Below are positions 1,119 to 52,085 of a stretch of 64,000 nucleotides of DNA, one piece after another. The DNA lies in the NCBI GenBank assembly GCA_001778375.1, contig MFGV01000018.1, positions 47,022-111,021 on the forward strand, given 5' to 3'. Both the position numbers and the translations under genes were made by a program. The notes beneath the pieces were generated by a model that was given only the letters and a program-made list of their open reading frames with translations, was not told where the DNA came from and did not search any database. Each line of letters opens with the position of its first letter. The stretch's first letter is position 1. The stretch comes from Candidatus Firestonebacteria bacterium RIFOXYD2_FULL_39_29 (lineage in GTDB: Bacteria; Oederibacteriota; D2-FULL-39-29).

Positions 1119-1153
1119 CCGAGCTGTTCTCCTTATTAAACAAACACATCATC

Positions 1154-2914: not shown

Positions 2915-2980
2915 ATATTCTCCTTAGTAATTAATTTAGTATTTTAATCAACTTTTAAATATATAATTTCAACTATTCTA

Positions 2981-4498: not shown

Positions 4499-4589
4499 TA
4501 TTTTTCGTTTCCTTTTCTTTATCTGATCGTATTTTCATTTATTGACAAAAACACTATTTATATCCTGCAATATCAAATCTACTATTATT

Positions 4590-7803: not shown

Positions 7804-7828
7804 TAAGGCTCCTTCCATAAAGATATTT

Positions 7829-18666: not shown

Positions 18667-18737
18667 TCAGGCTTTCCCTTTTTTCTTGAGTTTCTCCGGA
18701 TAGAGATTGTTTTCCCCGTTAACTTTAATCCAAGCAC

Positions 18738-20450
18738 TTATTTTACAGTAAATCTGCCGGAATGTTTACTGTTGATCTCATAAATGTACCTGCCGGCAGA
18801 CACCGTATTCCCCGAGCTGTCTTTTCCGTCCCACACTTTAACATTATTTAAGACTTTGACTAAATCTCCGGAAATAGAATATATCCTGATGATAGAATTA
18901 TCCGGAAAACCGGAAAATCTTAAGGGTTCCTTCACTAAGTCCACAATATCCTTTTCCACTCCAACCGTATTTTCTTCTTTTGCTGTCCTTTCCGCCTTAG
19001 AGATTGGCGGACTGCCCGCCAAAGAACCGGCGGACAGGCTATGCACTTTCCCTTTTTTATTTCCTTTTTTTTCTGCGTTTTCTGTAATTCCTGCACCTGC
19101 TTTTCCTGCTTCACTTGCTGCCCCTCCCAGTCTCGCCGTAAAGGAAATTCTGTGCGTAACCCCGAGATCCCCGAAAGGAACAAAAGCATAATCAAGCTGG
19201 TAGTCTGAAATCCGGATTCCAATCCCCGCCGTCAGACCGGACAGTTCCCCCAGTTCATTACCGTTAAATCTATAACGATATCCAATCCTTGGAAAAAGAA
19301 GATTATCATAATTATATTCCAACCCTGCCGAGAACTTTGTAAAGTTATCAATCGGCTGATTAATATCAAAATCTCCGGTGAGATTAACCTCGGGAATTTT
19401 AAATCCAACCCCTACTTTAATATTTAGCGGCAACCAGTAGGAGGTTTCCCGTATAGAAAGATGCGGTCCAAAGTTTTGTATTACCATTCCAATGTTAACA
19501 TTTGGAACAATCTTATAAATTGCGCCGACATCTAAAGCAATTGTAAAACCGCCGTATATATCAATGCTTTCATAGACACCTTTAATATTTGCACCAAGTG
19601 TCCAGGATTCATCCAGCTTTGACGAATATGAAGCAACAGCCAGGATATCATAAGCCCCAAATGTTCCTTCCGGCAAAGAAGGACCGTCCTCCGGATTTTC
19701 CATAACCGTACGCCTTTCTATCCCTGCTAAATACAAGCCTCCCAGGGAAAAAGCACAAACACTCTTTGCATCAAGGCGAAGCGCGGCGGAAGCATATTCA
19801 TACCTGATATCCTGAAACCATTCGGTATGCATAGCTGTAAACTCATTACTTGTCAAATTATTCAATCCTGCCGGATTCCAATAAACAGCATAGACATCAT
19901 CCGCAATACCCGCATAGGATTCACCCATTCCGATAGCACGCGCACCCAAGCCTATTTTAAGGAAAGAAGCTGAGGTCTTGCCGGCATTGGGGTGAATCTC
20001 GGCAGCAAAAACAGTAGAAACAGCAAGTACAGCAGAAACAGCTAAGAACAGAATAAAAAAGGAATTATTTGTTTTTTTAATATACTGTCGTTCTTTGACG
20101 GCAGCCATTAAGGAACAAATCATCTTCCAAATCTCATCACAAAGATTAACAAGCTCATCATGGATATTTTCTTCAACAAGACTCTTCTCAAAAGCAAAGT
20201 CAAGTAAATACCTTACCTCTGCCGACGATCTCATAGATACATTCAAAAACTGAACAAATTCTTTCGGATGCAAAGCAGCATTGCCTTCAGCAATGTTTGT
20301 AGGAACAGACAAAGCCGCCCGACGCAACTGGCTAGTAAGGTCAAACATATATTTCCTCGGAAACTCATCTGTAATATCGTAAACCTTTAAAGCCAGACTA
20401 TGTGCTTTTACCCATACTTTCAACTTTCTGTAATCATTAGCATTTCCCAT
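18738..20450 (-). CDS. Four-helix-bundle protein (TIGR02436-like) fused in frame to a PorV/FadL-like outer-membrane beta-barrel with C-terminal sorting-type domain
   Basis: Residues 1-~110 match the four-helix-bundle (23S rRNA intervening-sequence protein) family (KAHSLALKVYDITDEFPRKYMFDLTSQLRRAALSVPTNIAEGNA...). From Met110/115 a signal peptide (KKTNNSFFILFLAVSAVLAVSTVFA) begins. The barrel signature FLKIGLGARAIGMGESYAGIADDVYAVYWNPAGL is shared with ORF 61644..62555. A C-terminal FlgD/T9SS-like beta-sandwich ends the protein. It may be two genes, 20108..20450 and 18738..~20120. Confidence 0.5.
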   Translation of the reverse strand: MGNANDYRKLKVWVKAHSLALKVYDITDEFPRKYMFDLTSQLRRAALSVPTNIAEGNAALHPKEFVQFLNVSMRSSAEVRYLLDFAFEKSLVEENIHDELVNLCDEIWKMICSLMAAVKERQYIKKTNNSFFILFLAVSAVLAVSTVFAAEIHPNAGKTSASFLKIGLGARAIGMGESYAGIADDVYAVYWNPAGLNNLTSNEFTAMHTEWFQDIRYEYASAALRLDAKSVCAFSLGGLYLAGIERRTVMENPEDGPSLPEGTFGAYDILAVASYSSKLDESWTLGANIKGVYESIDIYGGFTIALDVGAIYKIVPNVNIGMVIQNFGPHLSIRETSYWLPLNIKVGVGFKIPEVNLTGDFDINQPIDNFTKFSAGLEYNYDNLLFPRIGYRYRFNGNELGELSGLTAGIGIRISDYQLDYAFVPFGDLGVTHRISFTARLGGAASEAGKAGAGITENAEKKGNKKGKVHSLSAGSLAGSPPISKAERTAKEENTVGVEKDIVDLVKEPLRFSGFPDNSIIRIYSISGDLVKVLNNVKVWDGKDSSGNTVSAGRYIYEINSKHSGRFTVK

Positions 20451-20536
20451 ATACCCCGCCCTTGTTTTTTTCTAAGTTCCTAATCTTTTCCTTTTCTTGC
20501 TGTATTTACTGTTCTTGCTTTGTTTGCTGTACTTGC

Positions 20537-22786
20537 TTAATGCACCACGGCCATCTTCTTCGTGACATATTTTCTTTCACCATTAACTTTTGAGATAGCT
20601 TGGAGTTTGAAGATATAGACTCCGCTGGCATAGTCCTTAATGTTCCACGGGATGTCAACCCCATTCCCACCGAAACCGTTTCCTTTTAATTCTGCTACAA
20701 TCTCGCCCGCGATATTAAATACGGACACCGTAATATCCGCATCCGCGCCGAGATAGCATTTAAAATAAGTAATATCACCGAGCGCAGGATTCGGGTAAAC
20801 ATATACCGTATCTTTATTTATAAGTTCCGCAACACCAGGTTTATACTCGAAGATCCTATAAACTGAAAAGTGAGAGACCGTTGCAATCACATAATTCTCC
20901 TCGGTATTCGGTTTGGAAGTATTTACCACACTCCACTTCAATTTTGACGTATCCCAGACCGCAATTCTTAGATTTGTTTCTGATTTCCCCGCCACTTCAA
21001 CATCCGCGTAAGGGATTTTTATAGTTACTTTTTGTTTAAAAACAGCATTCGCAGCTTTCGTAAGAGTAAAGGATCTTGCAACCTCCGTCGGCGTAAAATT
21101 AGACGGGTAAGCGGAATTTGCATAGACCACAGGTTTATCAATAGTCACCGTATCATCTTCTGTCAAAGCTCCGGGGTCGAAAACAACTTCCGTACCGTCC
21201 GGAGAAGTTACAGTACCTCCGATTGCGGCACTTATTGTACCGGCAGTTATCACGTTGTTAATGAAAAACCCTATGATTGCCCTGCTATTTAAGGAAGTGC
21301 CGTCATCCACGGTAAGCCGCAGTTTATACTCCCCCTCAGGGAAGCCGCTCGTTACAAGACTCACGAGGTTATTAACCGCAGGCAGCGTTGTGCTCTCGCC
21401 TGCTTTTACCCAGGCAGCGGTATTGCCCAGGCTGTACTCTACGGTATATTTATTGAACTGCGCATTTTCTATTACACCCTTTAGCATTACCTGCCCTTTT
21501 ACGGTCGCGCCGTCTTCCGGATAAGTAATTGCAGAAACTTTTGCTGCTTTAAAAGCGTATAGTGTCCCGTCCCCGGTTTCTCCGCAACCCACATAAACCC
21601 AGCCGTTTGCAACCGCCGGGGTAGAGAGTATAGGAGCTTCAACCGTTTTAGTTTCCAGAATATCACCATTAATATCAACTGCATAAAGTTTACCTTCAGT
21701 AGACCCGGCATAAATAACTCCGTTTGCCACAACAGGAGTGGAAACAACACCGGTGGTAGAGGCATTGCCGAGAGGAACAGGTGCCATATTTGTAACCCCG
21801 CTTGAATTCAAAGAATATAGTTTTGCAGGTGTGATTCCGCTGACAAAATATATTGAGCCTTCCGCCTCAGTAATAGAAGATACCAGCGTAGGCAAAGCAG
21901 GCGCCGAACCAAAATCGTTTAAAACCCAACCCGGCTTTGGAGTCCCGTCGCTATTAAGTAAGAGCGCATGAACTTTTCTATCATCGTTTCCTCCTGCAAA
22001 ATAAACGACGTTACCGTCATTTGAGACACAGGGTGTCGCAAGAAATACCCCGCCCGCAGTCGGAAAGAACCATTTCACCTCTCCTGAATAAGCATCAAGC
22101 GCGTACAAACACCCGTCATTGGCCCCGACGTAAACAACACCGTTATATACCGCCGGCGAAGAGTAACTGTACTGCCCGATGGGTTTTGTCCAAGCCATAG
22201 ACCTTGTTGAAAGATTAAAACAATAGATGTATTTATTGGGATAACCTGTTGCGCCGTACATATTGCCGTTATAAATAACAGGAGAAGCACAATCGGTACT
22301 GCCAATATTATAAGTCCATTTAATTTCTCCGGTTTCGGCATCAAACGCATAAAGATTACCGTCCTGGGAAATGACATATATCCTGCCTGCATCCGCCAGA
22401 GGTGAAGAAACTATTTTGCCATCTGTTGAATACTGCCACTTTACTTCGGCGGTCAGTGAATCAGCCGTCATAGCATACACATCACCGGCATCATTGGCGA
22501 AGTACACCGCCCCGCGATAAACTATAGGCGAAGAAACTATTGCACCCTGTGTTGTGTAAGACCATTTCAAGGTAAGAGCCGGATAGGCCTGTTCAGTAAC
22601 CGCCCCCGACCGCTTTGAGTCCCGCTTGAAAGCCCGGAAATCAGCAGAAAAAGCAGAAGAAGCAAGGAAAGCACAGAAAGAGAAAACAGCAAGGAAAGCA
22701 AATACAGAAAGAAAATGTTTAAAAATAGATTTCTTTCTAAAATCTCTTAAACTTTCATTTAGTTTTTTCTTCATTTTGATCTCCAT
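20537..22786 (-). CDS. Secreted PQQ-like beta-propeller protein with Ig-like middle region and T9SS-type C-terminal sorting domain
   Basis: Signal peptide is followed by repeated PQQ/BamB-like blades (GAVYFANDAGDVYAM, GRIYVISQDGNLYAFDAETGEIKW, GVVYVGANDGCLYALDAYSGEVKW). The C-terminal ~80 aa (VYPNPA...SGVYIFKL...KKMAVVH) resembles Por_Secre_tail. Confidence 0.6.
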   Translation of the reverse strand: MEIKMKKKLNESLRDFRKKSIFKHFLSVFAFLAVFSFCAFLASSAFSADFRAFKRDSKRSGAVTEQAYPALTLKWSYTTQGAIVSSPIVYRGAVYFANDAGDVYAMTADSLTAEVKWQYSTDGKIVSSPLADAGRIYVISQDGNLYAFDAETGEIKWTYNIGSTDCASPVIYNGNMYGATGYPNKYIYCFNLSTRSMAWTKPIGQYSYSSPAVYNGVVYVGANDGCLYALDAYSGEVKWFFPTAGGVFLATPCVSNDGNVVYFAGGNDDRKVHALLLNSDGTPKPGWVLNDFGSAPALPTLVSSITEAEGSIYFVSGITPAKLYSLNSSGVTNMAPVPLGNASTTGVVSTPVVANGVIYAGSTEGKLYAVDINGDILETKTVEAPILSTPAVANGWVYVGCGETGDGTLYAFKAAKVSAITYPEDGATVKGQVMLKGVIENAQFNKYTVEYSLGNTAAWVKAGESTTLPAVNNLVSLVTSGFPEGEYKLRLTVDDGTSLNSRAIIGFFINNVITAGTISAAIGGTVTSPDGTEVVFDPGALTEDDTVTIDKPVVYANSAYPSNFTPTEVARSFTLTKAANAVFKQKVTIKIPYADVEVAGKSETNLRIAVWDTSKLKWSVVNTSKPNTEENYVIATVSHFSVYRIFEYKPGVAELINKDTVYVYPNPALGDITYFKCYLGADADITVSVFNIAGEIVAELKGNGFGGNGVDIPWNIKDYASGVYIFKLQAISKVNGERKYVTKKMAVVH

Positions 22787-22894: not shown

Positions 22895-24060
22895 TTACTG
22901 TATCTGCAGTGCGTACACTTTTCCGTCAGTTGAAGTAAATGTAATATTTGTATACTCTCCAAACCCGTCATCCCAGCCGCCAAGAACTGGCATTGCTTTC
23001 ACGGCAGCGCCGGTAGTCACAGGCCAGCCGCTTCTGAGAATACCGTCAGAGGCAGAGATACAATAACACCTTCCGTCATCACTTCCGAAATAAACCCACC
23101 CGTTATAAACGATAGGTGAAGATTTTATCGCCCCGGCGGTTGTAAACTCCCATATCGGTGTTCCGGTTTCACCGTTAATCTTGTACATCTTTCCGTTATT
23201 TGCGCCGAAATAAAGCGCTTTTGGAGACTCCCAGGCCCAATAAAACGGAACCGTTTCAATGGCGCTGCCTATATTATAATTACCGTCTTCCTGACCACCA
23301 CGATTCTTCCACCCGTCAGGGATTAACGTAAGATTTACGGAAGAGCGGCAATACATCTTTCCATCAGTTGAGGGTATGAAGAGATTATTTGAGGCTCCAA
23401 ATTGGTATCCGCCGTCAATAAACGGAGAGGACTTTATGCTTGAACCGGTAGTCAGCGTACTCAAGACCTGTCCGTTTACCGTGTTTACTCTGTATAAAGA
23501 ACCCCCTTCAGAGCCTATCCAGCAGGAGCTTACACCCGGAGTAAACTCATCAACAGCTGCCGAGCCGGTCAGATTCCCGGAAATCGCCGTGCTGGTATCC
23601 CAAATAACACTTCCGGTAGCATCGTCTATTTTGAAAAGTTTACCGTTCGCGGCCCCGATATAAATACTTCCGCCGGTCATAATCGGCTCTGCCTTTACAA
23701 CCGCGCCAAGATTAATCGTCCACCCTCCGGTTGTCGTTCCGGAAGTACCCTGATCTTTTATCTTATAGATGTAGCCCGCGTCATTAGCGATATAAATGAA
23801 GGTATTACCGTTTTCCATGGTAACCTGCGGGGCAGAACTAATAGCGCCTGTTGTTTCAAAAGGCACCGTCCATTTAGCGCTCCCGTCATTATTCAGAGCA
23901 TACAGTTTTCCCGCGGAGGAACCCATAAACAGGCCCTGCTCTGTGTCCCTGTTGATTGCGACAGGACTCGTAATCTGTTCGTTAACCGCCGTTGCTACAG
24001 TAGCAGGATATTGCGAGTCAACAGGAGGCGGCGCGGGAGCAAACACCGTAACACCGGTCG
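22895..24060 (-). other. C-terminal PQQ-like beta-propeller of the giant protein
   Basis: Blades GKLYALNNDGSAKW, GYIYKIKDQG, GKLFKIDDATGSVIW, GSLYRVNTVNGQVL, GKMYCRSS, GKMYKINGETGTPIWEF, GRCYCISASDGILRSGW, GKVYALQIQ. There is no T9SS CTD at the extreme C-terminus. Confidence 0.55.
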
Positions 24061-27000
24061 AAGAAACAGGGGCTGAAGCAGCCGTAGCCTGCGTAACATC
24101 ATAATAAGCATCCCTCAAGTAAATATCAGCATCCACAATTGCTTTAAAAGAATTCGGCGAAGCCGCACCGGCATTTGTGGTAAGTTCAGCAACTACAAAA
24201 TACACTGCGCTTGTTCCTTTCTGTATCGTTGCTTCACTTCCGTCAGGAAGAGGCACATTCATTGTCAAAACTCCGCTTCCGTCAAGGGATATGGAACTGT
24301 TCTGAACCGCGGCAAGAACATCCGTATCAAAAGCGGGTTCATAACTTCCGGCAACGCCCGTATTCGCGTTGTCCCTGAATATACTGACGCTCTCAAACAA
24401 CCCCTGCGCCCCGGCAGTAGAAAGGAGAGTTCCGCCTCCATCCGTGAATTTAACATTTACCGATGTCAGTTCTATATTATTCCCCCACGCAGGGCTGGTA
24501 CTCGTCACCGTAATTTTAAGGAGCGCGATCTTTTCGCTGTTATTCGCACTTCCGTTAACGGGAGCGGTATCAGAAACAACTCCGGTGGGTATTGAAGCAT
24601 CATAGGTTATGGCGCTGTTTACAACCTGAGCCGGCGCGCCGTCAGCCGTATCGCTATTGAGTATTAACTTATACGTCGCACCGTCAACTATCTTATTTCC
24701 TTCTATATCGGTGATTACCGCGCCGGAAACTGTCACTGTTTGCGGAGCTGTTACCGCAGTATTAAAACCAAGATCAGAAAGCCTGAACACATGAGGAGAT
24801 TTAGTATCCGTATTTCCGCCGGTCTTGACAAACCATAAAGTATCATTAACCCCGTCGGAAGAATTCTCGCCCAGAGTGATACTTATTTTAAAATTCCTTG
24901 AAATATTTATGGTTGGAGAGCCAAAAGTATTCGCCAAAACCTGAGTTCCCGCACTATTTCGCCGCCCTTCTGTCGGTGTCGCGAAACTTCCAAAGTCACT
25001 GTTATCAACATTTGTATCAACCCCGTTTCTGCCCAGAGTATTCGGAGCAGAAAGACCGCCCGCAGCAGAATTCGCATATAGAACCAGTGTTCCTGTATAA
25101 TCATAATAGACAGAAGGCGTTCCGGACTGCCAGGTCGCCCTGTCTTCCACCTGGCCCGAAGCATTTTCGAGAGCAACAAAATCCGCCGATGAGGTAAGGC
25201 CGTTCGTTGTTCCAAAGGAGTTCTCATATGTAAAGCTGTTTGCCCCGGTATCCGTACTGCTGTTATCCACCGCGGCAAAAGAACCCGCGTCTATATTTCT
25301 GGTAAAAGTAAAATGTTTCCTGTAGGGATTATTTCCGGAAACGGACTGAGAACCTCTTAATATGTATCCGGCAAGCGTCACCGCCGTGCCTCCTGTATTA
25401 TTTAACTCAATAAATTCATCCGCAAGCTGATGATATGAGATCTCATTTATTTTCACGGTACCGGTGACCGCATTAAGCGCGTTTTGAGTCGGCGTCGGAT
25501 CTTTCTCAAGATAATTACTGCCGTCAGAGATTCTTGCAAAAGAAATATCTGATGCGCCTGCAGTAAAGGCGGGCCACTGCACTACATCAATCTGAGTATT
25601 TGAATTATCTTTAAGTTTCACGTATCTAATATTATTCCCGTCCAAATTCGACGAAACGCCGAGTGTAAGTACACTGCCGTTTGTGACGGTAACTCCGGCA
25701 CTTCCTGTCCACACCGCTACATCCGTTCCGGGGCTTGCTATAGTTCCGCTGTTATAAACCAGAGTCCAGCCGCTCAAACCGACATCACTGCCGGTGTCAT
25801 TATAAAGTTCAACCCAGTCCGCGCCTGCTGAAGCTCCGAGCGAATAAACCTCATTAATATGTATATTACCCGTCTGCGGCAAGCAGGACGGATTGTTTGA
25901 AAGAGCAGAATAATTATTGGCCTTATCTTTTGTTTTAATTGCAAAATAATAGGTTACTCCGGGTGTTAAACCCGACAGATATCTTGTCTCCTCTGCGGCG
26001 GCTGTTACCGGCACCCAGGTATTCGGGTAATCTGTTGCATTTTCAAAATCAGTATCATTGGCAATCGGACTTGTCGAATATCTCACTATATACGACCCTG
26101 CTGTATTGTCCGCAGAAACCCCGTTATCTCCGGGAGCAGTCCAGGTAAGTTTTACCTGTCCCCGGGACACTCCCGGCACCGCGGTAAGATTTGTCGTATT
26201 TGAAGGAGCCACCGTGTCTTTTCTTATATAGAAAGCATCCGTAGTCAAAGTGGTCAAGCCCGCATTGTCATACCCTCTTGCCGATACGTAGTTTGTTCCT
26301 TCTGCCAGAGCCGACCAGGCAACAGTCCAGTTTGTCGTGTAAGTCGAGGCATTTATTGACGAAGCAATATTTGTCCAGGCCACAAGATTTGTCCCTGTCA
26401 TTCCGGTGGCAGAATAAACCGTATACTGAACATTATTAAGCAGAGAGGTTGCATCCGAAAAATCAACATTATAGGAGGTACCTGCAGCGTTTCGCCAGGC
26501 TGTATCACCGGACTGATTATTGGTAATCACCGGAGCCACGGTATCTTTTTTTACATAAAACTTATCGGCTTCAATAACGTTATTGCCCGCACCGTCTACT
26601 ATTTTAACGGAAATATTATTTACACCCTCCTGTAAAGCCGTCCAGACTGCGGAAGGAAGAGCCCAATCGGTTGTATAACTGTTATTATTTATTCCGGATA
26701 CCGCATTTGTCCAGTCAGAAAGAAGCGAACCTGTCATGCCGGTTCCTGAATACACTTTCACCTGGTTGTAAGCTAAAAGCGAACCACCTGCATCCGAGAA
26801 ATCCACATTATAGGTGCCATTATTTGAAGTTCTCCACGTATCATCCCCTGCCTGATTATCGGTCATACCCGGCGGATTCGTATCATGCATATCCAGACAC
26901 ATATTCGCGCATCTGTATAAAGAATCTGAAGCTCCGGCATTATGTACAGTCCCGCCGGTCCAGGCAGAGCCCGTCCAATTCCTGGAAGCAATGGTTGCTG

Positions 27001-30000
27001 ATTCATCTATACCAACAGCCGTCATCTTGTTCTGATTCGGATCCGGCTCAAGCTGAACCCAGCGTATATGGTTAGACCAGTCATAAGTATCTTTCGGTGC
27101 CGCAGCCGGAGTAGCAGACCAGCCGCCCGCAGAAGTCCACGTAATATAACTAAGTTTTGTTGAAGTAAAATCCACGGCAACCGCAACTGCTTTGCCGCTG
27201 CTTTTTTCAAAAGCAACATCAGCTCTAAATCCGTCAGACGGTTCCATCGTAGTATCCGCCGCAGGAAGCGCGCCCCACGCAGCGCCGGTCCAGACGCAGA
27301 CATCCCATCTTGAAGAACCCGAGAGTGAAGCAAAAGCAATATTGTTTGAGGACGACGCCGTATCAGAAGCAATTCTTATCCAGTTAGCCGTCGACGCAAT
27401 GTTAGGCCCAGTTCCCTGAGACGCAAGCCATATCGAACCGTTCCACTGATCATACGTTGTTCCTGTACCGGCACCCCAGATTACCATACATTTACCCGAG
27501 GTATTTTCCCAGGCAATATCAAAGCATTGTTTACTGTTAACCGCGGCCGCAGTCGAAAGGGTTTTACCGTTACCCCATACAGAACCGCTCCATCTTAAAG
27601 CATAAATATCGGAATTAGCATCCAGAGTCGCAAGCATTATTTCCGCAGTTCCGCTTCTTTGTTTCAATCTCACCCAGTAAACTATACCTGTAGTCCCGGC
27701 ATCATACGTAGTTTCATTCGTCCAGGAGGTACCGTCCCAAATCCTGTAAGCTATCTCATTTGAAGCCGCACCGGTAGAGTAAACCACCATACATCTTCCC
27801 GTTGTCTGTTCATACGCAATATCAAAACCTCTATAAATGCTGTTATTTGAGCCGATGCCCGAGACATTCCATTGAGTCTGCCAGGAGTTTGTCAAACCGT
27901 CATATTTTAAGACAGACATAGTGCCGCCGCTGGAAAGAACCCCTGCCATTTTCTCATTCCTGAAAACAGGGCAGGGTTTTGTAATCACCCATCTTATGGT
28001 AGCCGTAGCCGCCGTAGCAGTCTGCTCGCTGCCCCATGCCGACCCGCTCCAGAGTTCATACTTTGGATTTGTTAAACTTCCCGAGCCGTAAATGATAACC
28101 CCTGCCGCCGCACCGGGAGCTCCGGAAACCGCTGAAGGGGAATTGCCGTAGGTTCCTGTATTTGGGACTTCATCATAAGCTCTTATTGCAAAATAATACG
28201 TAGTACTCGGAGTTAAACCCGAAACCGTCCTGTTTTCTGTAACCCCGGCATTAACCGGTGTCCAGGATTGACTATAGGTAGTCGCCGCATTCCAGGTTGC
28301 CAGATTCGTCACAGGAGTGGGTGCATATTTAACAGTGTACCCTCCGTTCGGCGGAGCCTGCAAGTTAATGCCTGTCCCATTGTCCCCGGGCGCAGTCCAG
28401 GAAAGATTTACCTCTCCCGCATAATCTCCGGTAACCGCAGACAGGCTTGTTATCTCTGACGGCGCAGTAACATCAGCACCGGTAGTTCCCGAATTACCCG
28501 TAAGATTTGAAACACCTCCCAAACTTCCCGCTTTATCAACCGGTTTTATAGCAACGTAATACAAAGAGTTTGCATTAAGTCCCGTTATACTCCTCGTTTC
28601 CGTACTTCCTCCCGCAACAAAACTTGCCCAGGAGTGAGTATAAGTAGAAGCCGCATTAAAGTCCACATCAGTCCCCGAAAAGTTCCCCTGCGCGGAGGTT
28701 TTATATTTTACCGAATAATTGCTGACAGTTCCCGAAGCAGCATCATCCCCCGGAGCTTTCCAGGAGAGATTTAAAATACCTTCCGCTCCCGTAGAAACCG
28801 AAAGATTAGTGATAGCCGACGGCGCTGTTGTGTCCTTGTTTATATAGAAGACATCATTTTGCGATACGGCATTTGTCAGATTATCGTAAGCTCTGACAGA
28901 AACATAATTAACACCCTCCTGCAGTGCCGCAAAATCCACCGTAAAGTTAGTCGTGTAAGTAGCGGCATTCAGTCCGGTTGCGATATCCGTCCAGTCCTTT
29001 CTGATGCTTCCCGTCTGCCCCGTCGCAGTTGTTACTTTATACTGCACATTGTTCAGAAGAGAACCGTTGTCGGTGAAATCTACATCATAAAGTGTCCCGG
29101 CCGCATTCCTCCAGGCCGTATCCCCTGTCTGGTTATTGGTAATTGTCGGTCCCTGGGTATCTTTTTTTACATAGAACACGTCGTTTTGCTGTTTCGTATT
29201 TCCGGAGTTATCGTAAACCCGGACCGAGACATAATTCGTACCTTCGGACAAAGCGGTGAAATCCACAGTCCAGTTTGTCGCATAAGACCCGGCATTTATT
29301 CCCGAGGCAATATTCGTCCAGGCTTTAATAGTCGAACCGGTAAGGCCGGTTCCGGAATATACGGTATACTGCGCGTAAGAGAGCTGTGAACCGCCGGCAT
29401 CAGTGAAATCAACATCGTATACGGTTCCCGCAGCACTCCGCCAGGTATTATCACCGGCCTGATTATTGGTAACTACCGGTAAAGTAGAGTCTTTCCTTAC
29501 ATAAAACACATCGTCAGAAGTAATAACTCCGCCTGCATTATCATAAGCTCTGACGGAAACGTAATTACTCCCGTCAGCAAGCACGTTATAATCAACACTC
29601 CAGTCTGTCGCATACGAAGAAGCATTTATTCCGGTCGCAATATTGGTCCAGTCCTTTATAAGGGTGCCTGTTTTTCCTGTCGCCGAGTACACCGCATACT
29701 GCGCATACGAAAGGTTGGAGTTCCCCGTATCAGAGAAATCTACATTATACACAGTCCCGGCAGTATTTCTCCAGGTATTATCACCTGTCTGATTATTGGT
29801 AAAAGAAGGCGCTAGCGCATCTTTCTTGACATAGAAAGCATCCGTAAGAACAGTTGAAGAAGTCTGATTATCGGAGATCCGTACAGAGACATAATTTGTC
29901 CCGTTTTGAAGGGCAGCAAAATCCACCTGCCAGTCGGTCGTATATGTCGAAGCGTTTATTCCGGAAGCAATCGCTGTCCAATTTTTAAGCTGACTGCCTG

Positions 30001-39000: not shown

Positions 39001-42000
39001 AACCCCTGTAAATATTATTCACAGAACCTATACCCGTGTTTGTAAACTCCGTCGTCCACGTGGAGGTTTGCCCGTTCCAGCGCAGTATTGACAAAGTCCC
39101 GTCGGAAGAAAGAACCCCTGCTATCTTTTCATTTCTGACCACGGGGCAGGATTTAACCGCAACCCATCTTATACTTCCGGTAGCGTTGGAGGCATTCAAC
39201 TGAGGATCCCAGGCGGAGCCCGTCCAGTTCATATACCTCGGGGCAGCATTTGTACTATCGCCGTACATTATAACTCCCGCAGCCGCGCCGGGCATTCCGG
39301 AAGTAGCCGAGCTCGAATTTGAAAGGCCCGAAGTATTCGGCACTTCATCATAAGCTTTAACGGCGAAATAATAAGTTGTATTTGAAAGAGGCATGCTCAA
39401 AACCCTGCTCTCTCCCGTTCCTGCCGGCTCCGGTACAAAGTTCTGGGCATAAGTTGTCGCATTACCCCAGTCCGTATCATTGTTTATCTGGCCTGAAACA
39501 GAATATTTAATTGTATACCCCCCGTTTGCCGGAGATTGAAGGTTACCCGAACTTCCGTTATCACCGGGCGTAGTCCAGGTCAGAATAACCTGTCCCGGAT
39601 AATCGCCTGTTACCGCATTCAGATTGGTTATAGCAGAAGGTGCAGTCGTATCAGATCCAGTAAGAGCAAAATTACCCGTAAGATTTGATATTGCTCCATA
39701 ATTGCCTGCTTTGTCATATGCTTTTATGGCAACGTAATAGGTCAATGCAGGAGTTAGTCCAGTTAACACATGATTTTCCGAAGAGCCGGCGCTTGAAGCT
39801 CCCCAGGACTGGCTGTAAGCTGCCGCTGAATTAAAATCATTATCAGTTCCGGTAAAATTACCGGAGGTCTTAAGTTTTACCAGATAACCGGAAGGAGTTC
39901 CGCTTGCCCCGTCATCCCCCGGCGCAGTCCAGGAAACATTTATTTCTCCTTCAAGGCCGGTAGAAGCTGCAAAATTGGTGACAGAAGCAGGAGCCGTGGA
40001 ATCTTTTTTTACGTAAAAAACATCATTGAGTGACGAGTTGTTTCCGATAAGGTCATACGCCCGGACAGAAACATAATTTGTCCCTTGCAAAAGAGAGGCA
40101 AAATCAAGTGTCCAATCAGAGGTATAGGAAGAGGCGTTGATTCCGGACGCAATATCCGTCCAGTCCTTTAAGACTGAACCCGTCTGACCTGTTGCCGAGC
40201 AAACTTTGTACTGAACATAGGAGAGGAGTGCCCCGGAGTCGGAAAAATCCACATTGTATGTTGTTCCTGCAGAAGCTCTCCAGGTATCATCTCCGGATTG
40301 ATTATTGGTAATGGACGGAGCAGCAGTATCCTTTTTTATATAGAACGCATCGGTTAAACTCTGAGAATTCCCGGCGTTATCGGTAACTTTTACCGTTATA
40401 TAATTGACACCCTGTTGTAACGCGCTCCAAGTCGAGGCATCCAAGCCCCAGTTGGAAGTATATGAAGAGACATTCAACCCGCTAAGCTGGATGGTCCAGT
40501 CCTTCATCAGGCTCCCTGTCTGCCCGGTACCGCTGTAAACTTTCGTTTCAACCTGAGAAAGAAGCGCTCCACCGGTATCCGACAGATCAAGATCATAAAC
40601 TCCGTCATTTATACTTCTCCAGGTGTTATCCCCTGTCTGGTTATTAGTAATAGAAGGATTAGTACTGTCTTTTTTTACATAAAACACATCTTCCGATATT
40701 AAGCTCCCGCCCGCATTGTCAGTTATCCGTACTGAGACATAGTTAGAACCCTGAGAAAGAGAGGTAAAATCAACGGCCCAGTCGGTAGTATAAGAAGAAG
40801 CATTTATACCTGAAGCAACAGCCGTCCAGTCCTTATTCATTATCCCGGTTCTGCCGGTAGCCGTCCAAACCGAGTATTCGGCGGCTGCAAGTAATGAACC
40901 GCCGGCATCAGAGAAATCAACATTGTAAACCGTACCCGCCGCGCTTCTCCAGGTATTATCACCCGCCTGATTATTTGTAACGGAAGGAACCGTGACATCT
41001 TTTTTTACATAGAACGCATCCGTAAGCGTTTCCGGATTCCCCGCATTATCATAAACACGGACGGAGACATAGTTCGTCCCGGAAGAAAGAGAAGCAAAAT
41101 CGACAGACCAATCCACCGTGTAAGTTGAGGCGTTTATAGCCGAGGCAATATTTGTCCAGCCGATAATCGTCGAACCCGTAAGTCCCGTGCCGCTGTAAAC
41201 CGCATACTGCGCGCTTGCAAGAAGACTTCCGTTATCCGAAAAATCAACATTGTAAACAGTTCCTGCCGCGCTTCTCCAGGTATTATCACCTGTCTGATTA
41301 TTCGTAACCGAAGGAACCGTGACATCTTTTTTTACGTAGAACGCATCCGTAAGCACCGCAGAATTTCCCGCATTATCATAAACACGGACGGAGACATAAT
41401 TGATCCCCTGCTGCAATGAAGAATAATTAACCTGCCAGTTTGTTGTATATGAAGCCGTATTAATATTTGTGGCAATAGTCGTCCAGGTAACCAGCTGGCT
41501 TTCCGTTTGTCCCGTTCCCGAATACACGGTGTACTCCGCATAATTAAGATTAGAACTTCCGGCATCGGTAAAATTAACGTCGTACGCCGTTCCGGCCGTA
41601 TTCCTCCAGGTATTATCTCCCGCCTGACTGTTTAAAATAGAAGGAGCAGTCAAGTCCACTACAGTGGAGCTTTCCGGACCGGTCGAAGAAGACGGAGGAT
41701 TTGTTTCATCCGTATTTCCGGCAAGGTCAAAAGCAACAGCCCTGAAACCGTAAACGCTCGCGGCTGAAGCCGTAAAAGCAACCGGGCTTGTCGTAAAGTC
41801 ACCGTAACTTGTCCAGGTATAAGGCGCACCGTTACTTGACGTATAATAAAGCCTGACATAATCTATTCCCGAAGGTGAATCCGAGGAAGAAAACGCAACG
41901 TTGAAAGTCAGTGTACTTGAATTAGTCGGGGAAGAAGCCGCAGCAGAAGGGCTCACCGTATCCTTCTTTACATAAAATGCATCTTTTAACAGAGTAGTGT

Positions 42001-45000: not shown

Positions 45001-48000
45001 CCGAAATATAATTCACGCCAATCTGGCAGGCGGAAAAATCTATCGTAAAATCCGTAGTATAGGTGGAGGCGCTAACCGTGTTTGCAATATTTGTCCAGTT
45101 CTTAAGCTGCGAACCGGTAAGACCTGTTCCGGAGTAAACCGCATACTGAATATTATTGAGTAAAGAGGCCGTGTCCGAAAAATCCACATTATAGGTTGTC
45201 CCGGAAGAAGCTCTCCAGGTATCGTCCCCCGTCTGGTTATTGGTAACTAAAGGAGGAACCGTATCTTTCTTCACATAAAACACATCATTCTGGGAGGCGG
45301 TATTTCCCGCGTTATCATAAACACGGACGGAGACATAATTGATTCCCTGCTGGCAGGTACCGAAGTCAATGATCCAATCCGGGTTATAGTCAGTGGAATT
45401 AATAGAAGATGAGAAAGTAGTCCAGGGCTTAATCTGGGTTCCGGTCTGCCCCGTTGCAGAATATATCGTATACTGAACATACGAGAGCTGCGAAACTGCG
45501 TCGGAGAAATCCGTATTATAAACGGTACCCGCGGTGGTCCGCCAGGTATCATCTCCCGTTTGATTGTTAGTGATCCCCGGAGCCACGCTATCTTTCTTTA
45601 CATAAAATACATCATTTTGAGAAACGGTATTTCCCGCATTATCATAAGCGCTTACCGAGACGTAATTCGCTCCCTGCTGTAACGAAGCAAAATCCAGTTG
45701 CCAGTCGGTTGTATATGCTGAGGCATTTATTCCCGTTGCAATATCTGTCCAATCTTTAAGCACGGTACCTGTCTGGCCCGTAGCCGCACACACTTTATAC
45801 CGGACGTTACTTAAGAGCGCGCCACCGGTTTCAGAAAAATCAACATTGTAAACAGCACCTGCCGCAGCTCTCCAGGTATCATCCCCCGTCTGATTATTCG
45901 TAACACCCGGCGCAGATGCATCTTTCTTTATATAAAACACATCATTTTGAGAAACGGTGTTGCCCGCGTTATCATAAACTCTCGCGGACACATAATTCGT
46001 TCCCGCGACAAGAGATGCAAAATCCACCTGCCAGTCCGTCGTATAAGTAGTAGCATTTATTCCGGTTGCAATATTTGTCCAGTCCTTTAAAACCGTCCCG
46101 GTTTGTCCTGCCGCAGAACACACCTTGTACTGAACGTTGTTAAGAAGAGAGGTTGCATCCGAGAAGTCCACATTGTAAACCGTACCGGCCTCCGATCTCC
46201 AGGTATCATCGCCCAGCTGGCTTACCGTTATCGCCGGATTAGCTATATCTTTTTTCACATAGAATACGTCATTTTGCACCGCATTATTGCCTACGGTATC
46301 ATAGGCTCTTACAGAAACATAGTTCGTCCCTTCCTGTAAAGAAGAATAGTCCACCTGCCAGTTGGCTGAATAAGAAGAAGAGTTGATCCCCGTCGCAATA
46401 TTAGTCCAGTCCTTAAACTGCGAGCCGGTCCGGCCTGTAGCGCTATAGACAGTGTATTGAACATTATTTAAAAGCGAACTTGCGTCGGTAAAATCCACAT
46501 CGTAGGAAGTTCCAGCCGAGGTACGCCAGGTATTATCACCTGTTTGGTTATTTGTAAAACCGGGAGCAGTTGTATCTTTCTTTACATAGAAGACATCGGT
46601 TTGCGAAACGGTATTTCCTGAATTATCATATGCTCGGACCGAAACATAATTCGTCCCCTGCTGTAAAGATGCGTAATCCACCTGCCAGTCTATGGTGTAA
46701 GTAGCGGCATTTATTCCCGCTGCTATATCTGTCCAATCTTTCAGAACTGTTCCCGTCTGACCTGTTGCGGCGCACACCCTGTACTGGACATTATTAAGAA
46801 GCGAGGTCGCATCAGAAAAATCAACATTATATGTCGTCCCGGAAGCTGCACGCCATGTATCATCCCCGGTCTGGTTGTTTGTTATTCCCGGATTTACACT
46901 GTCTTTCTTAACATAGAACACGTCATTTTGAGAGAAAGTATTTCCCGCATTATCATAAGCCCTGACCGAAACATAATTTGCTCCCGCTTGTAAAGAGGCA
47001 TAATCCACCTGCCAGTCAGTTGTATAAGTAGTCGCGTTTATTCCCGTTGCAATATTAGTCCAATCCTTAAGAACTGTTCCGGTCTGACCTGTTGCTGAAC
47101 ATACTTTGTACTGAACGTTACTAAGAAGCGAGGTCGCATCAGAGAAATCTACATTATATGTTGTCCCTGAGGCGGCTCTCCAGGTATCATCGCCTGTCTG
47201 ATTATTTGTTACTCCGGGATTACCCGTATCCTTCTTCACATAGAACACATCATTTTGAGATACGGTATTTCCCGCATTATCATAAGCCCTGACCGAAACA
47301 TAATTACTCCCCTGCTGTAAAGACGCGTATGCTACCTGCCAGTCAGTTGTGTAAGACGCCGCATTTATATTTGTTGCTATTGTCGTCCAGGTGACCAGCT
47401 GCGAACCGGTCAACCCCGTTGCGGAATAAACAGCGTACTGCGCATAATTTAAATTCGCTCCGCCTGCATCAGTAAAGTCCACATTATATGTTGTTCCCGA
47501 GGCAGCTCTCCAGGTATTATCCCCCGTTTGATTGTTCGTTACTCCGGGATTACTTGTATCTTTCTTTACGTAGAAAACATCGTTTTGTGCCAGCGTGTTT
47601 CCCGTATTATCATAGGCTCTTACCGAAACATAATTCGTCCCCTGTTGTAAAGACGCATAGTCCACTTGCCAGTCGGCAGTATATGTGGCAGCATTAATAT
47701 TGGTCGCTATAGTTGTCCAGGTAACCAGCTGCGAACCGGTCTGGCCCGTAGCAGAATACACGGTATACTGAACATAATTTAATAGCGAGGTCGCGTCGGA
47801 GAAGTCCACATTGTACGTCGTCCCCGCTGCGGCCCTCCAAGTATCATCTCCGGTCTGGTTGTTTGTTATCCCGGGATTCCCTGTATCTTTCTTCACATAG
47901 AACACATCATTTTGAGAAAAAGTATTTCCCGAATTATCGTACGCTCTTACCGAAACATAATTCGTCCCCTGCTGTAAAGACGCGTACGCTACCTGCCAAT

Positions 48001-50938: not shown

Positions 50939-51212
50939 ACAATATTATATACCATCTCCCATATTACAGTAATTATACAACATTTTTTGTACTCTGTAAT
51001 GTATTTTTTTAAACATTGGTCAATATTAGATTACACCTTAAGTTTGCAGGGTTTTACTGAATTAAGTATGACGGGAAGCAGGGGAAGTAAAAGAAGCAAA
51101 TACAGTAGAAGAAGTAGAGGAAGTGCAATCAACAAAAGAAGAAAAGAACTGATTTTTAATAGGATTTTTACTGAATGGCTTTCGTAACTTTTATTACTTC
51201 ATTTTCTTCATC

Positions 51213-51270
51213 CGCCCAGGTGGATTTCGGAAAGAAAAGTTGTTAGATATTTAGACTTTCCTCAACTCCC
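51213..51270 (+). repeat. 60-bp repeat element, copy C (giant-gene leader)
   Basis: CCGCCCAGGTGGATTTCGGAAAGAAAAGTTGTTAGATATTTAGACTTTCCTCAACTCCC. The 3' flank (ATTCCTTTGCTTCTTTTACTTCATTTACTT) is shared with copy D. Confidence 0.65.
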
Positions 51271-51509
51271 ATTCCTTTGCTTCTTTTACTTCATTTACTT
51301 CGTTTTCTGCATTTGCTTCACTTGCTTCCTTCCTCAGCTTCTCCTCGGGAATCCCGTGCAGGAGGGCTGCTTGATAGGCCCTGCATTGCATTTCCCGCAG
51401 GCAAGGGTGGAGGTTTCAAATATTTTTTGCGATTTTAAAGCAGGTTTTTGATATTTTGTTTTTTTAAGCTTCTTTTTTTTTCTCATTTTGCCACCTTATC
51501 CCGATTTTT

Positions 51510-51568
51510 CCGCCTAGGCGGATTTCGCAAAGATTTATGGTTTGATATTTAGACTTTCCTCAACTCCC
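51510..51568 (+). repeat. 60-bp repeat element, copy D (giant-gene leader)
   Basis: CCGCCTAGGCGGATTTCGCAAAGATTTATGGTTTGATATTTAGACTTTCCTCAACTCCC. Confidence 0.7.
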
Positions 51569-51647
51569 ATTCCTTTGCTTCTTTTACTTCATTTACTTTT
51601 TCTGCTTTGCTTGCTTCCCCTACTTCTCTTTTCCCACTTTCATCATC

Positions 51648-51705
51648 CACCCAGGTGGATTTCGCGAAGACTTATGGTCTGATATTTAGACTTCGCTCAA
51701 CTTTA
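51648..51705 (+). repeat. 60-bp repeat element, copy E (overlaps 3' end of peptidase ORF)
   Basis: CACCCAGGTGGATTTCGCGAAGACTTATGGTCTGATATTTAGACTTCGCTCAACTTTAC. Confidence 0.6.
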
Positions 51706-52085
51706 CTCACTACATGCATAATTTTATTATACATGTTCTCTTCTACTACACCAATTATATCACTTTTATTTATTTTATGCACTACCGAATCCTTAGAATC
51801 ACCTTCAACTGTGATCAGACCTGTTTTATTGTTCATTCCCGTTATTCTATGTATCAAGAACCATGACCGTGTTTTATAGCAGATAATAGATCCTACTTTC
51901 ACTTGTTTAGAATTTATAATTTTGATCTTAGAATTCGCCCTGATAGTCGGACTCATTGACCCGCCAAACACTTTAATACGAATACTTCCTTTATTTATTA
52001 TTTCATCAGCTATTATATCTCGAGCTATTTTTTTATTCACCCCTGGGAAATCCCCCATGAAGCAAATAGGTCGGTGTCCGGTCAT
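51672..52085 (-). CDS. S24/S26-family serine peptidase-like protein (LexA/signal-peptidase fold; Ser-His variant)
   Basis: 137 aa. VFGGSMSPTIRANSKIKIINSKQVKVGSIICYK...FLIHRITG...ITVEGDSKD matches the G-[DG]-S-M-x-P-T ... [KH]-R-[IV] ... GD pattern. His replaces the usual general-base Lys, as in SipW/Sec11-type enzymes. The last ~10 codons overlap a copy of the 60-bp repeat element. Confidence 0.4.
   Translation of the reverse strand: MTGHRPICFMGDFPGVNKKIARDIIADEIINKGSIRIKVFGGSMSPTIRANSKIKIINSKQVKVGSIICYKTRSWFLIHRITGMNNKTGLITVEGDSKDSVVHKINKSDIIGVVEENMYNKIMHVVSKVERSLNIRP

What the first reader, a model, noticed from the sequence alone, without database searches (positions are those of the whole stretch)
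26250..41975. Higher-order organisation: W-variant repeats every 14 units and a duplicated ~1.95-kb FN3-FN3-W-blade supermodule
The variant units have N-N-G/T-N-T-G in place of AAGT and '...W.L.A..W.AL.EG' in place of 'W.VDF..L.QG'. They occur at repeats 14, 27, 41 and 55, with 25 as an extra, so the spacing is 13-14 units. Supermodule copies sit immediately N-terminal to variants 27 and 55. This pattern implies the gene grew by duplicating ~4.6-kb blocks (variant + 13 regular repeats, with or without the supermodule), not by single-unit slippage. It also defines a candidate functional super-unit.
Basis: seen in the sequence. Interest (0 to 1): 0.6.

Follow-up and report, generated by a model that had tools for sequence, protein, structure and literature searches.

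The report
Giant surface protein array doubled once

Summary
One minus-strand ORF (22895-50938, 9,347 aa) holds 56 units of 109-115 aa. W-variant units sit at 14, 25, 27, 41 and 55. Two collinear FN3-FN3-propeller supermodules (651 and 654 aa, 58% identical) lie directly before variants 27 and 55.

Offsets of 13-14 units show no position-wise similarity in sequence or in a slow indel 'barcode'. The only long diagonal is at about 3,720 aa (11.2 kb): units 13-28 match 40-56, with both supermodules on it.

Counting a 103-aa Ig-like insert as a domain, the array has 57 domains (2x28+1). Its two halves are 3,715 and 3,726 aa, which fits one tandem doubling. Units 1-10 were homogenised later.

A syntenic orthologue at 60% identity has the same layout, and a propeller tree dates the doubling to their common ancestor.

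The unit, the propeller and the N-terminal domain have no Pfam, NCBIfam or PDB sequence match. This is a new member of a known kind (a giant adhesin-like repeat protein with an internal segmental duplication). Interest is modest.

The parts
22895..50938 (-). Giant ORF, 9,347 aa: signal peptide, 691-aa N-terminal domain, 56 Ig-like units plus one insert, two propeller supermodules, C-terminal FN3 / 2x LTD / PQQ-like propeller
48866..50938 (-). N-terminal region, aa 1-691. Begins with a Sec-type signal peptide (MMRKMLTIFSRTAVLALILAATSFA|GT, read from the sequence). The rest matches no Pfam or NCBIfam family
   Evidence: the same ~700-aa head is present in P0028, P0034 and P0037
37721..48865 (-). 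Proposed copy 1 of the tandem doubling: units 1-27 plus insert plus supermodule 1 (aa 692-4406, 3,715 aa)
26543..37720 (-). Proposed copy 2 of the tandem doubling: units 28-55 plus supermodule 2 (aa 4407-8132, 3,726 aa)
45590..48865 (-). Units 1-10, a recently homogenised or locally duplicated zone. Mean nt identity is 0.73 against 0.61 elsewhere; third-codon identity is 0.50 (units 2-3: 0.78) against a 0.42 background
44603..44935 (-). Unit 13 (111 aa, atypical end 'FYVIKA', extra residue in the G-x-N-Y loop). Reciprocal best partner of unit 40
44258..44602 (-). W-variant unit 14 (115 aa). Reciprocal best partner of unit 41
41651..41959 (-). 103-aa Ig-like insert between units 21 and 22 (aa 2994-3096). 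It occupies the position of unit 48 or 49 in copy 2, and is the first element of the conserved cassette [insert] r r r V r [FN3 FN3 propeller] V
   Evidence: (weak Big_3_2 match)
40328..40666 (-). W-variant unit 25 (113 aa), part of the conserved internal cassette
38048..40000 (-). Supermodule 1: FN3, FN3, then an 8-blade W-x-G-x-x-W beta-propeller (propeller = 38048-39286)
37721..38047 (-). W-variant unit 27, directly after propeller 1. Best partner is unit 55
33443..33775 (-). Unit 40 (111 aa, end 'FYIKKA'), counterpart of unit 13
33104..33442 (-). W-variant unit 41 (113 aa), counterpart of unit 14
26870..28831 (-). Supermodule 2: FN3, FN3, 8-blade propeller (propeller = 26870-28117)
26543..26869 (-). 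W-variant unit 55, directly after propeller 2
26216..26542 (-). Unit 56, the last unit. It has Trp at the diagnostic column but no insertion. It is the counterpart of unit 28. The ending '<propeller> V r + ~1,100-aa tail' is conserved across the family
22898..26215 (-). C-terminal 1,106 aa: FN3, two lamin-tail domains, an unassigned stretch, then a PQQ/BamB-like beta-propeller running to the stop codon. No T9SS C-terminal domain was detected
16549..22786 (-). Conserved downstream neighbours: PQQ-propeller protein with a T9SS type-A sorting tail (20537-22786), PorV/PorQ-family protein (18738-20450), TPR protein (16549-18666). The same order follows the orthologue

Best explanation
What it is. 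The gene encodes a giant secreted, fibre-like surface protein of a Candidatus Firestonebacteria bacterium. Its stalk is a chain of 57 beta-sandwich (Ig-like) domains, interrupted by two FN3-FN3-propeller heads.

How the layout arose. The regular placement of W-variant units reflects history and not a 14-unit building block.
1. The ancestral gene had one array of about 29 domains: roughly 13 regular units, a variant, 7 units, an Ig-like insert, r r r V r, FN3-FN3-propeller, a variant, one last unit, then the C-terminal tail.
2. A single tandem duplication of a 28-domain segment plus supermodule (about 11.2 kb) doubled the array. This happened in the common ancestor of this lineage and of the GCA_038042445.1 lineage. 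Variant 14 became 14+41, variant 27 became 27+55, and supermodule 1 became 1+2. Unit 53, the counterpart of variant unit 25, is a regular unit, and this pair shows no residual similarity.
3. Later, units 1-10 were homogenised by local duplication or gene conversion. The rest of the array froze, because units only ~61% identical in DNA no longer recombine.

Function. The insertion-type (V) unit is the obligatory C-terminal partner of the propeller throughout the family. The functional cassette is therefore [insert] r r r V r [FN3 FN3 propeller] V, most likely a ligand-binding head held at a fixed place on the stalk.

Shown: the anatomy, the long diagonal, the geometry, the orthologue layout, the propeller tree, and the propeller-then-V rule.
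Inferred: that the doubling covered the whole array including units 1-12, and all functional statements (adhesion, ligand binding, surface location).
For: Landmarks on one diagonal.
- Units 13/40 and 14/41 are reciprocal best partners after double-centring. Units 27/55 are reciprocal best on amino-acid identity and rank 2 each way on nucleotide identity.
- The supermodules are 58% identical.
- All of these landmarks lie at one offset of 3,718-3,726 aa.

Interior regular units, which were not used to form the hypothesis.
- They show excess similarity on that diagonal: aa z=+2.9, p=0.004; nt z=+2.2, p=0.023.
- The excess sits at codon positions 1 and 2 only; position 3 is saturated.

Unbiased scans.
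- A local alignment of the unit series against itself (units 11-56) returns exactly 13-28 / 40-56 as the best chain: nt p=0.005, aa p<0.001.
- The indel barcode matches at 18 of 19 positions over domains 10-29. An all-offset scan picks that same segment (permutation p=0.018-0.046).
- The barcode is a reliable positional character: it is conserved at 31 of 33 positions between orthologues.

Geometry. There are 57 domains (2x28+1). The halves are 3,715 and 3,726 aa, equal to the offset, as a tandem duplication requires.

Orthologue and dating.
- P0027 (60% identical, collinear, syntenic) has the layout V25 r SM V27 13r V41 13r SM V55 r tail.
- The propeller tree groups (giant W1, P0027 W1) and (giant W2, P0027 W2) into one clade that excludes all other family members.
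- A cross-species replicate (giant 13-28 vs P0027 40-56) gives z=+1.8, p=0.04.

Units 1-10 are young. Third-codon identity is 0.50-0.78 against a 0.42 background. The five barcode mismatches in units 2-9 all go toward the homogenised 109-aa type.

Family evidence.
- All 26 units directly after a propeller carry the insertion, against 39% of units overall.
- Method control: P0033 shows a clear 3-unit super-repeat.
Against: - Units 1-12 vs 28-39 show no detectable similarity (z=+0.1 to +0.4; barcode 3 of 9 for domains 1-9). Extending the doubling to the whole array rests on geometry plus the homogenisation argument.
- With variant-variant pairs zeroed, the long chain is no longer the top chain in the unbiased scan.
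- The barcode scan is only borderline under a first-order Markov null (p=0.05-0.12). The first unbiased scan, with units 1-10 included, was not significant.
- Unit 25 (variant) pairs with unit 53 (regular), and the insert pairs with a normal unit. Copy 2 must therefore have lost or replaced these features, even though the cassette with insert and variant is the form conserved in distant relatives.
- The propeller tree is neighbour-joining without bootstrap, and the key internal branch is short.
- The near-equal spacing of variants inside one 28-domain block (positions 14 and 28) remains unexplained.
- No experimental evidence exists for expression, location or binding.
Confidence: 0.62

Rival explanations
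1. The array is four copies of a ~4.6-kb block (one variant plus 13 regular units, with or without the supermodule). Blocks 1-14, 15-27, 28-41 and 42-55 are then all homologous position by position.
For: The spacing of variants 14, 27, 41 and 55 is strikingly regular: 13 regular domains between each if the insert is counted. The five variants are each other's closest relatives. Unit-level signal is close to saturation, so an old event could be invisible.
Against: Offsets 13 and 14 show no excess identity (z between -0.45 and +0.81). The explicit block tests are null except 15-26 vs 43-54. The barcode matches at 42-45% at those offsets and at 5-7 of 13 between the proposed blocks, yet the same character is conserved at 31 of 33 positions between orthologues and 18 of 19 across the 28-domain diagonal. 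The cross-species test at offsets 13 and 14 gives z=+0.7 and -0.9. The V-type unit is ancient and family-wide (39% of units carry the insertion), so similarity among variants does not imply recent block copying.
Confidence: 0.1
2. Two or more independent smaller duplications (for example units 13-14 giving 40-41, and supermodule-27-28 giving supermodule-55-56) landed at the same offset by chance, or by insertion at equivalent sites. The interior units are unrelated.
For: The strongest signals are at the landmarks (13/40, 14/41, SM1/SM2, 27/55). Interior signal is weak, and several interior pairs have zero or negative residuals (21-48, 16-43, 25-53). With variant pairs zeroed, the long chain is not the top chain.
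Against: A shared offset within 6 aa out of 3,720 for all landmarks is unlikely for independent events. Interior regular units alone are significant (p=0.004 aa). The barcode is identical for units 15-20 vs 42-47 and for 22-26 vs 50-54. The offset equals half the array length.
Confidence: 0.12
3. The regular spacing is functional (a molecular ruler). Selection keeps about 13 plain domains between specialised V units and heads, independent of how the units arose, so the number rather than the sequences is what is conserved.
For: Unit counts between variants are identical in an orthologue at only 60% identity, while the positional counterpart is the best hit for just 5 of 33 units. The halving of each 28-domain block by a variant at position 14 is not explained by the doubling.
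Against: Barcode conservation at 31 of 33 positions shows the units are in fact positional orthologues, so the pattern is stasis and not turnover. Other family members have quite different spacings, including V every 3 units in P0033 and irregular patterns elsewhere. Diverged repeats at 61% nt identity are poor substrates for recombination, which explains a constant count without selection.
Confidence: 0.08
4. Assembly artefact. The metagenome assembler duplicated or mis-joined repeat blocks.
For: The sequence comes from a metagenome-assembled genome. Other assemblies break inside this gene (L001 and P0037 end in the repeats).
Against: The two halves are only ~61% identical in DNA. The longest exact repeat is 78 nt and lies between units 2 and 3. 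The reading frame is open for 28 kb. An independent assembly of a different species carries the same layout.
Confidence: 0.02

Closest known systems
Giant Ig-like-repeat bacterial adhesins (SiiE of Salmonella with 53 BIg domains; MpIBP of Marinomonas with ~120 repeats; the 51-domain Mobiluncus mulieris adhesin; RTX adhesins)
   Same: A very large secreted protein. Most of its length is a tandem chain of ~100-110-aa beta-sandwich domains that would act as an extender, with a few non-repeat, probably ligand-binding, modules (abstracts of PMC5466336, PMC4083281, PMC10619420, PMC7493085 and PMC12077191, listed).
   Different: No RTX or T1SS signature and no BIg or Pfam-recognised Ig family. It has an N-terminal Sec signal. 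The repeats are strongly diverged (60% aa, 62% nt) rather than near-identical as in MpIBP. The heads are beta-propellers placed mid-stalk and near the C-terminus. The neighbourhood encodes T9SS-type components. No function has been tested.
Super-repeats of titin and nebulin (fixed multi-domain patterns produced by block duplication); from general knowledge, not tested here
   Same: There is a higher-order pattern of domain subtypes along a long Ig/FN3 chain, generated by duplication of multi-domain blocks and retained after the sequences diverged.
   Different: Here there are only two copies of one very large block (28 domains plus a propeller module), not many copies of a 7- or 11-domain pattern. 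No partner structure is known whose periodicity the pattern would match.
Other members of the same unannotated repeat family (674 proteins at E<1e-3, for example P0027, P0028, P0030, P0032, P0034, P0049, P0033)
   Same: They share the same ~110-aa unit in regular and insertion-type forms, the same FN3-FN3-propeller module always followed by an insertion-type unit, and the same ~1,100-aa C-terminal tail. Block duplications also occur elsewhere in the family: P0049 has two sister propellers, and P0033 has a 3-unit super-repeat.
   Different: The window protein, together with its orthologue P0027, has the longest runs of regular units (13 in a row), the fewest V-type units (5 of 56 against 39% family-wide), and its own lineage-specific doubling.
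Beta-propeller lectins of the PLL/PHL/BP39L type, and generic WD40-like propellers

Membership tests
   Offsets 13 and 14: z -0.45/+0.81 (nt), -0.33/-0.32 (aa). Block tests are null. Barcode match is 42-45%. Cross-species z is +0.7/-0.9. The method detects a true 3-unit super-repeat in P0033.
Single tandem segmental duplication (array doubling) | One continuous diagonal of similarity whose offset equals the length of the duplicated segment, with the copies adjacent | tested here: met
   All landmark offsets are 3,718-3,726 aa, and the halves are 3,715 and 3,726 aa. The best chain is 13-28 / 40-56. The barcode matches at 18 of 19 positions over domains 10-29. Domains 1-9 are not informative because they were later homogenised.
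Single tandem segmental duplication (array doubling) | The paralogous copies coalesce after divergence from outgroups, and the orthologue has both copies | tested here: met
   Propeller NJ tree: W1 and W2 of giant and P0027 form one clade, each copy pairing with its orthologue. There is no bootstrap, so support is moderate.
Fibronectin type III domain (Pfam PF00041) | Score above the Pfam gathering threshold (25 bits) | tested here: met
   Supermodule 1 scores 33.6 bits and supermodule 2 scores 44.7 bits with two stretches. The C-terminal FN3 scores 23.1 bits, just below the cut-off.
RTX / T1SS giant adhesins | C-terminal RTX nonapeptide repeats and a T1SS signal; BIg-type extender domains | tested here: not met
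   No RTX, HemolysinCabind or BIg family was found by Pfam or NCBIfam in any segment scanned: the N-terminal region, units 6, 13 and 14, the 103-aa insert, both supermodules (NCBIfam: supermodule 1 only) and the C-terminal region. The protein ends in a PQQ/BamB-like propeller and starts with a Sec-type signal peptide.
T9SS cargo proteins | C-terminal sorting domain (type A TIGR04183 or type B) | tested here: not met
   No C-terminal sorting domain was found in the giant's last 1,106 aa. The adjacent gene does carry TIGR04183 / PF18962, and a PorV/PorQ gene follows it.
PLL/PHL-type propeller lectins | Seven-bladed propeller with inter-blade sugar pockets; family-level sequence similarity | tested here: inconclusive
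Recognised bacterial Ig-like domain families (Big_1 to Big_13 and others) | Score above the Pfam gathering threshold | tested here: not met
   The best matches are Glucodextran_B (15.7 bits) and Big_13 (14.4 bits), against a cut-off of 27. There is no NCBIfam hit and no PDB hit below E=0.1. The all-beta fold with about 7 strands is seen in the AF2 model of unit 27.

The most novel reading that the evidence does not exclude
The exact number of plain domains between the specialised V units and propeller heads (13) is itself under selection. The protein would then act as a molecular ruler that presents two propeller heads at fixed distances along a fibre more than 200 nm long. The V unit's extra Trp-bearing helix would form a defined joint next to each head. 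This would explain why the count is identical in an orthologue that has diverged to 60% identity, and why each 28-domain block is itself halved by a variant at position 14.
Probability: 0.08. Interest if true: 0.6.

Novelty: new member of a known kind. Interest (0 to 1): 0.3.

Why it matters
For genome annotation, the case shows how a regular-looking 'every 14 units' pattern in a giant repeat gene can come from one large ancient doubling rather than from a small repeating block. It also shows that slow indel characters and orthologue comparison recover that history when sequence identity and DNA dot-plots are saturated.

For biology, it defines three things:
- a widespread repeat family with no Pfam, NCBIfam or PDB sequence match (at least 674 proteins);
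- an equally unmatched 8-blade W-x-G-x-x-W propeller;
- a conserved cassette (Ig-like insert, r r r V r, FN3-FN3-propeller, V) that is the natural unit to express and test for ligand binding.

The protein is probably the main surface fibre of an uncultured phylum, Firestonebacteria, and sits next to T9SS-type genes. None of this overturns current ideas about giant adhesins.

Tried and rejected
1. DNA-level repeat finding over the gene returned only the unit family plus one 185-nt pair at 73% inside the FN3 region. No long DNA diagonal is visible, because the copies are 61% identical.

2. The first unbiased self-alignment of the unit series was not significant (p=0.27-0.53). Shuffling the near-identical units 1-10 inflates the null. 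I repeated it on units 11-56.

3. A gapped scan of the binary barcode with cheap gaps gave an uninformative chain at short offset. I replaced it with an ungapped scan in domain coordinates.

5. Pfam, NCBIfam and PDB sequence searches for the unit, the N-terminal domain and the propeller gave nothing above threshold.

6. I expected unit-by-unit orthology between giant and P0027 to be obvious. It is not (5 of 33 best hits), which forced the use of the barcode.

7. The AF2 model of propeller plus V27 gave good confidence (pTM 0.81). Without coordinates or PAE, I could not establish whether the V-specific helix touches the propeller. Strand topology suggests it lies at the C-terminal pole of the unit, so I make no interface claim.

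8. Literature searches found no description of this protein or family.

9. I considered a still older 14-to-28 doubling inside each block. Barcodes match at 5 of 13 and 7 of 14 positions, which is chance level.

Full report
**What is there.** The finding lies inside a single open reading frame on the minus strand, window 22895-50938, encoding 9,347 residues. Neighbouring proteins are identical to entries of two Candidatus Firestonebacteria metagenome-assembled genomes (OGF47697/OGF55322). The giant protein itself is not in the public protein collection as an exact sequence.

The protein starts with a Sec-type signal peptide, read directly from the sequence. A 691-residue region follows that has no Pfam or NCBIfam match. 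Next come 56 tandem units of 109-115 residues. The protein ends with a 1,106-residue tail containing an FN3 domain, two lamin-tail domains and a PQQ/BamB-like propeller that runs to the stop codon.

**Checking the observation.** Anchoring on the unit-end motif gives exactly 56 units. Separate HMMs for regular and variant units reproduce those calls.

The two supermodules (aa 3647-4297 and 7370-8023) are 58% identical and collinear over their whole length. Each starts with two FN3 domains above the Pfam threshold and directly precedes variants 27 and 55.

It is not an assembly artefact. The longest exact repeat is 78 nt. The two halves are about 61% identical in DNA. An independent assembly of another species has the same layout.

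All 56 units were aligned, and protein and codon-aligned DNA identities were computed. Mean identity is 60% (aa) and 62% (nt), and beyond unit 10 almost all pairs lie at 60-70%.

I removed each unit's general closeness to the consensus by double-centring. Offsets of 13 and 14 units then show no excess similarity: z = -0.45/+0.81 for DNA and -0.33/-0.32 for protein. Direct comparisons of blocks 15-26, 28-40 and 42-54, in either anchoring, are null. The one exception is a hint for 15-26 vs 43-54. The four-block, 4.6-kb model is not supported.

Units 1-10, in contrast, are each other's closest relatives at 72-91% nt identity. Their third codon positions are not saturated: 0.50 overall and 0.78 for units 2-3, against a 0.42 background. 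That part of the array did evolve by recent local duplication or gene conversion.

**The long diagonal.** Units 13 and 40 share an atypical end ('IKA/KKA') and an extra loop residue, and they are reciprocal best partners, as are variants 14 and 41. Variants 27 and 55 are reciprocal best partners on amino-acid identity and second-ranked each way on nucleotide identity. All these landmarks, together with the two supermodules, lie at one offset of 3,718-3,726 residues.

The interior regular units played no part in forming this idea. They show excess similarity along the same diagonal: aa z=+2.9, p=0.004; nt z=+2.2, p=0.023.

An unbiased local alignment of the unit series against itself returns exactly 13-28 / 40-56 as the best chain. 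With all units included it is not significant, because shuffling the near-identical units 1-10 inflates the null. With units 11-56 it is significant (nt p=0.005, aa p<0.001), although it depends partly on the variant pairs.

The excess similarity is confined to codon positions 1 and 2, and position 3 is at background.

**A slower character.** Units come in a 109-residue form and a 110-residue form that differ by one residue in the 'D-(A)GGS-L' loop. This binary barcode reads:
- units 13-28: 1101001 1 0 [insert] 1 0 1 1 0 [SM] 1 0
- units 40-56: 1101001 1 1 0 1 0 1 1 0 [SM] 1 0

Counting the insert as a domain, the match is 18 of 19 over domains 10-29. A scan over all offsets picks that same segment as the best in the array. 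The p-value is 0.018-0.046 by permutation and 0.05-0.12 under a Markov null. At offsets 13 and 14 the match is 42-45%, which is chance level.

**Calibration with an orthologue.** A profile of the 56 units finds 674 proteins in 1.8 billion representatives, including other giants with 24-44 units. P0027 (5,973 aa) is 60% identical and collinear with residues 3389-9347. It comes from assembly GCA_038042445.1 and is followed by the same genes. Its layout is V25, r, supermodule, V27, 13 r, V41, 13 r, supermodule, V55, r, tail.

Even between these orthologues, the positional counterpart is the best hit for only 5 of 33 units. The diagonal residual is +0.027 (z=5.4), no larger than the intragenic diagonal. 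The barcode, however, is conserved at 31 of 33 positions.

Three conclusions follow:
- Overall identity has little power for old events.
- The barcode is reliable.
- The array has been static since the two species split.

A cross-species replicate, giant units 13-28 against P0027 units 40-56, is again positive (z=+1.8, p=0.04; G14-P41 rank 1, G28-P56 rank 2). Offsets 13 and 14 are null.

**Model.** With the insert counted, the array has 57 domains (2x28+1). The two halves are 3,715 and 3,726 residues, equal to the diagonal offset, as a tandem duplication requires.

A neighbour-joining tree of all propellers in the family pairs giant W1 with P0027 W1 and giant W2 with P0027 W2. All four fall in one clade that excludes every other protein. 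The most economical history is therefore a single tandem doubling of a 28-domain block plus supermodule in the common ancestor of these two lineages, followed by homogenisation of units 1-10.

The doubling explains the variant pairs 14/41 and 27/55 and the equal spacings. It does not explain why a variant sits halfway along each 28-domain block. An older 14-to-28 doubling is not supported by the barcode (5 of 13 and 7 of 14 matches) but cannot be excluded.

The weakest part of the model is units 1-12 vs 28-39. No similarity is detectable over units 1-9; units 10-12 match only in the barcode. The five barcode mismatches in units 2-9 all go toward the homogenised type.

**The functional cassette.** I classified units explicitly by the insertion and the Trp at the diagnostic column. 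All 26 units that directly follow a propeller, in the family proteins that carry one, have the insertion, against 39% of all units. The pattern [~103-aa insert] r r r V r [FN3 FN3 propeller] V recurs, complete or in part, in P0030, P0035, P0036 and P0041, and its first half in P0056. The ending 'propeller V r + ~1,100-residue tail' is common. Unit 25 is thus part of a conserved cassette.

The propeller folds with high confidence (pLDDT 90, pTM 0.91). It has eight W-x-G-x-x-W motifs about 50 residues apart. It has no sequence relative in Pfam or PDB. Its roughly 23 detectable sequence relatives are stand-alone proteins of 430-550 residues, most with signal, transmembrane or prepilin-type N-termini.

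A model of propeller plus unit 27 is confident (pLDDT 88, pTM 0.81), and the V-specific insertion forms a short helix. Without coordinates I cannot say what that helix contacts.

**Context and comparison.** Downstream genes encode a PQQ-propeller protein with a T9SS sorting tail, a PorV/PorQ-family protein and a TPR protein. The order is conserved next to the orthologue. The giant protein itself has no T9SS C-terminal domain and no RTX features.

It works like the giant Ig-repeat adhesins (SiiE, MpIBP, the Mobiluncus adhesin, RTX adhesins), but it is not a member of those families by any tested criterion. Block duplication is a general habit of this family. P0033 has a clean 3-unit super-repeat (0.73 identity at offset 3 against 0.32 elsewhere), and P0049 has its own pair of sister propellers.

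**Verdict.** The phenomenon is an ordinary segmental duplication inside a giant repeat gene. The domain families are undescribed, but the kind of protein is familiar. Interest is modest (0.3).

Noticed in passing
P0033 (family member, 4,620 aa; not in the window): It has a clean 3-unit super-repeat. Unit identity is 0.73 at offset 3 and 0.68 at offset 6, against 0.32 at other offsets, with a V-type unit every third position. Multi-unit block duplication is therefore recurrent in this family.
   Followed up: partly
window 45590-48865 (units 1-10): This is a young, locally homogenised zone. Units 2 and 3 are 91% identical in DNA, with a 78-nt exact repeat. Third-codon identity is 0.50-0.78 against a 0.42 background. 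Units 1-5 and units 6, 7, 9, 10 form two cliques.
   Followed up: yes
window 18738-20450 (minus strand): One ORF combines a four-helix-bundle (23S rRNA intervening-sequence type, TIGR02436) segment with a PorV/PorQ-family domain. In the orthologous locus L002 these are two separate genes (138 aa and 484 aa), so the window ORF may be an over-extended start or a fusion.
   Followed up: no
window 20537-22786 (minus strand): The gene directly after the giant gene encodes a PQQ/BamB-like propeller with a T9SS type-A sorting tail. The giant protein ends in a similar propeller but has no sorting tail. The pairing is conserved next to the orthologue.
   Followed up: partly
whole window: Every ORF of 150 aa or more is on the minus strand, except an antisense ORF (28859-29389) inside the giant gene that is almost certainly spurious. 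GC skew is negative throughout.
   Followed up: no
window 1-8000: The first 4 kb has 31% G+C, against 45-48% in the giant gene. A Wzc-like polysaccharide tyrosine autokinase lies at 5950-7839, so this may be an exopolysaccharide gene cluster of different composition.
   Followed up: no
P0001-P0023 (stand-alone relatives of the propeller): The W-x-G-x-x-W propeller also occurs as stand-alone proteins of 430-550 aa in Phycisphaerae and other metagenomic bacteria. Their N-termini are signal, transmembrane or prepilin-type (P0023 has an N-methylation motif; one is annotated PilX-like), hinting at a surface or pilus-associated role.
   Followed up: partly
window 26216-26542 (unit 56) and P0027 units: Unit 56 has Trp at the diagnostic column but lacks the insertion, an intermediate 'w' type. 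This type is common in the orthologue P0027 (about 13 of its regular units) but occurs only once in the window protein.
   Followed up: no
window 50939-52084: The roughly 1.1-kb stretch upstream of the giant gene has no ORF of 150 aa or more. In another assembly (L001), two small genes (128 aa and 33 aa) are called there.
   Followed up: no
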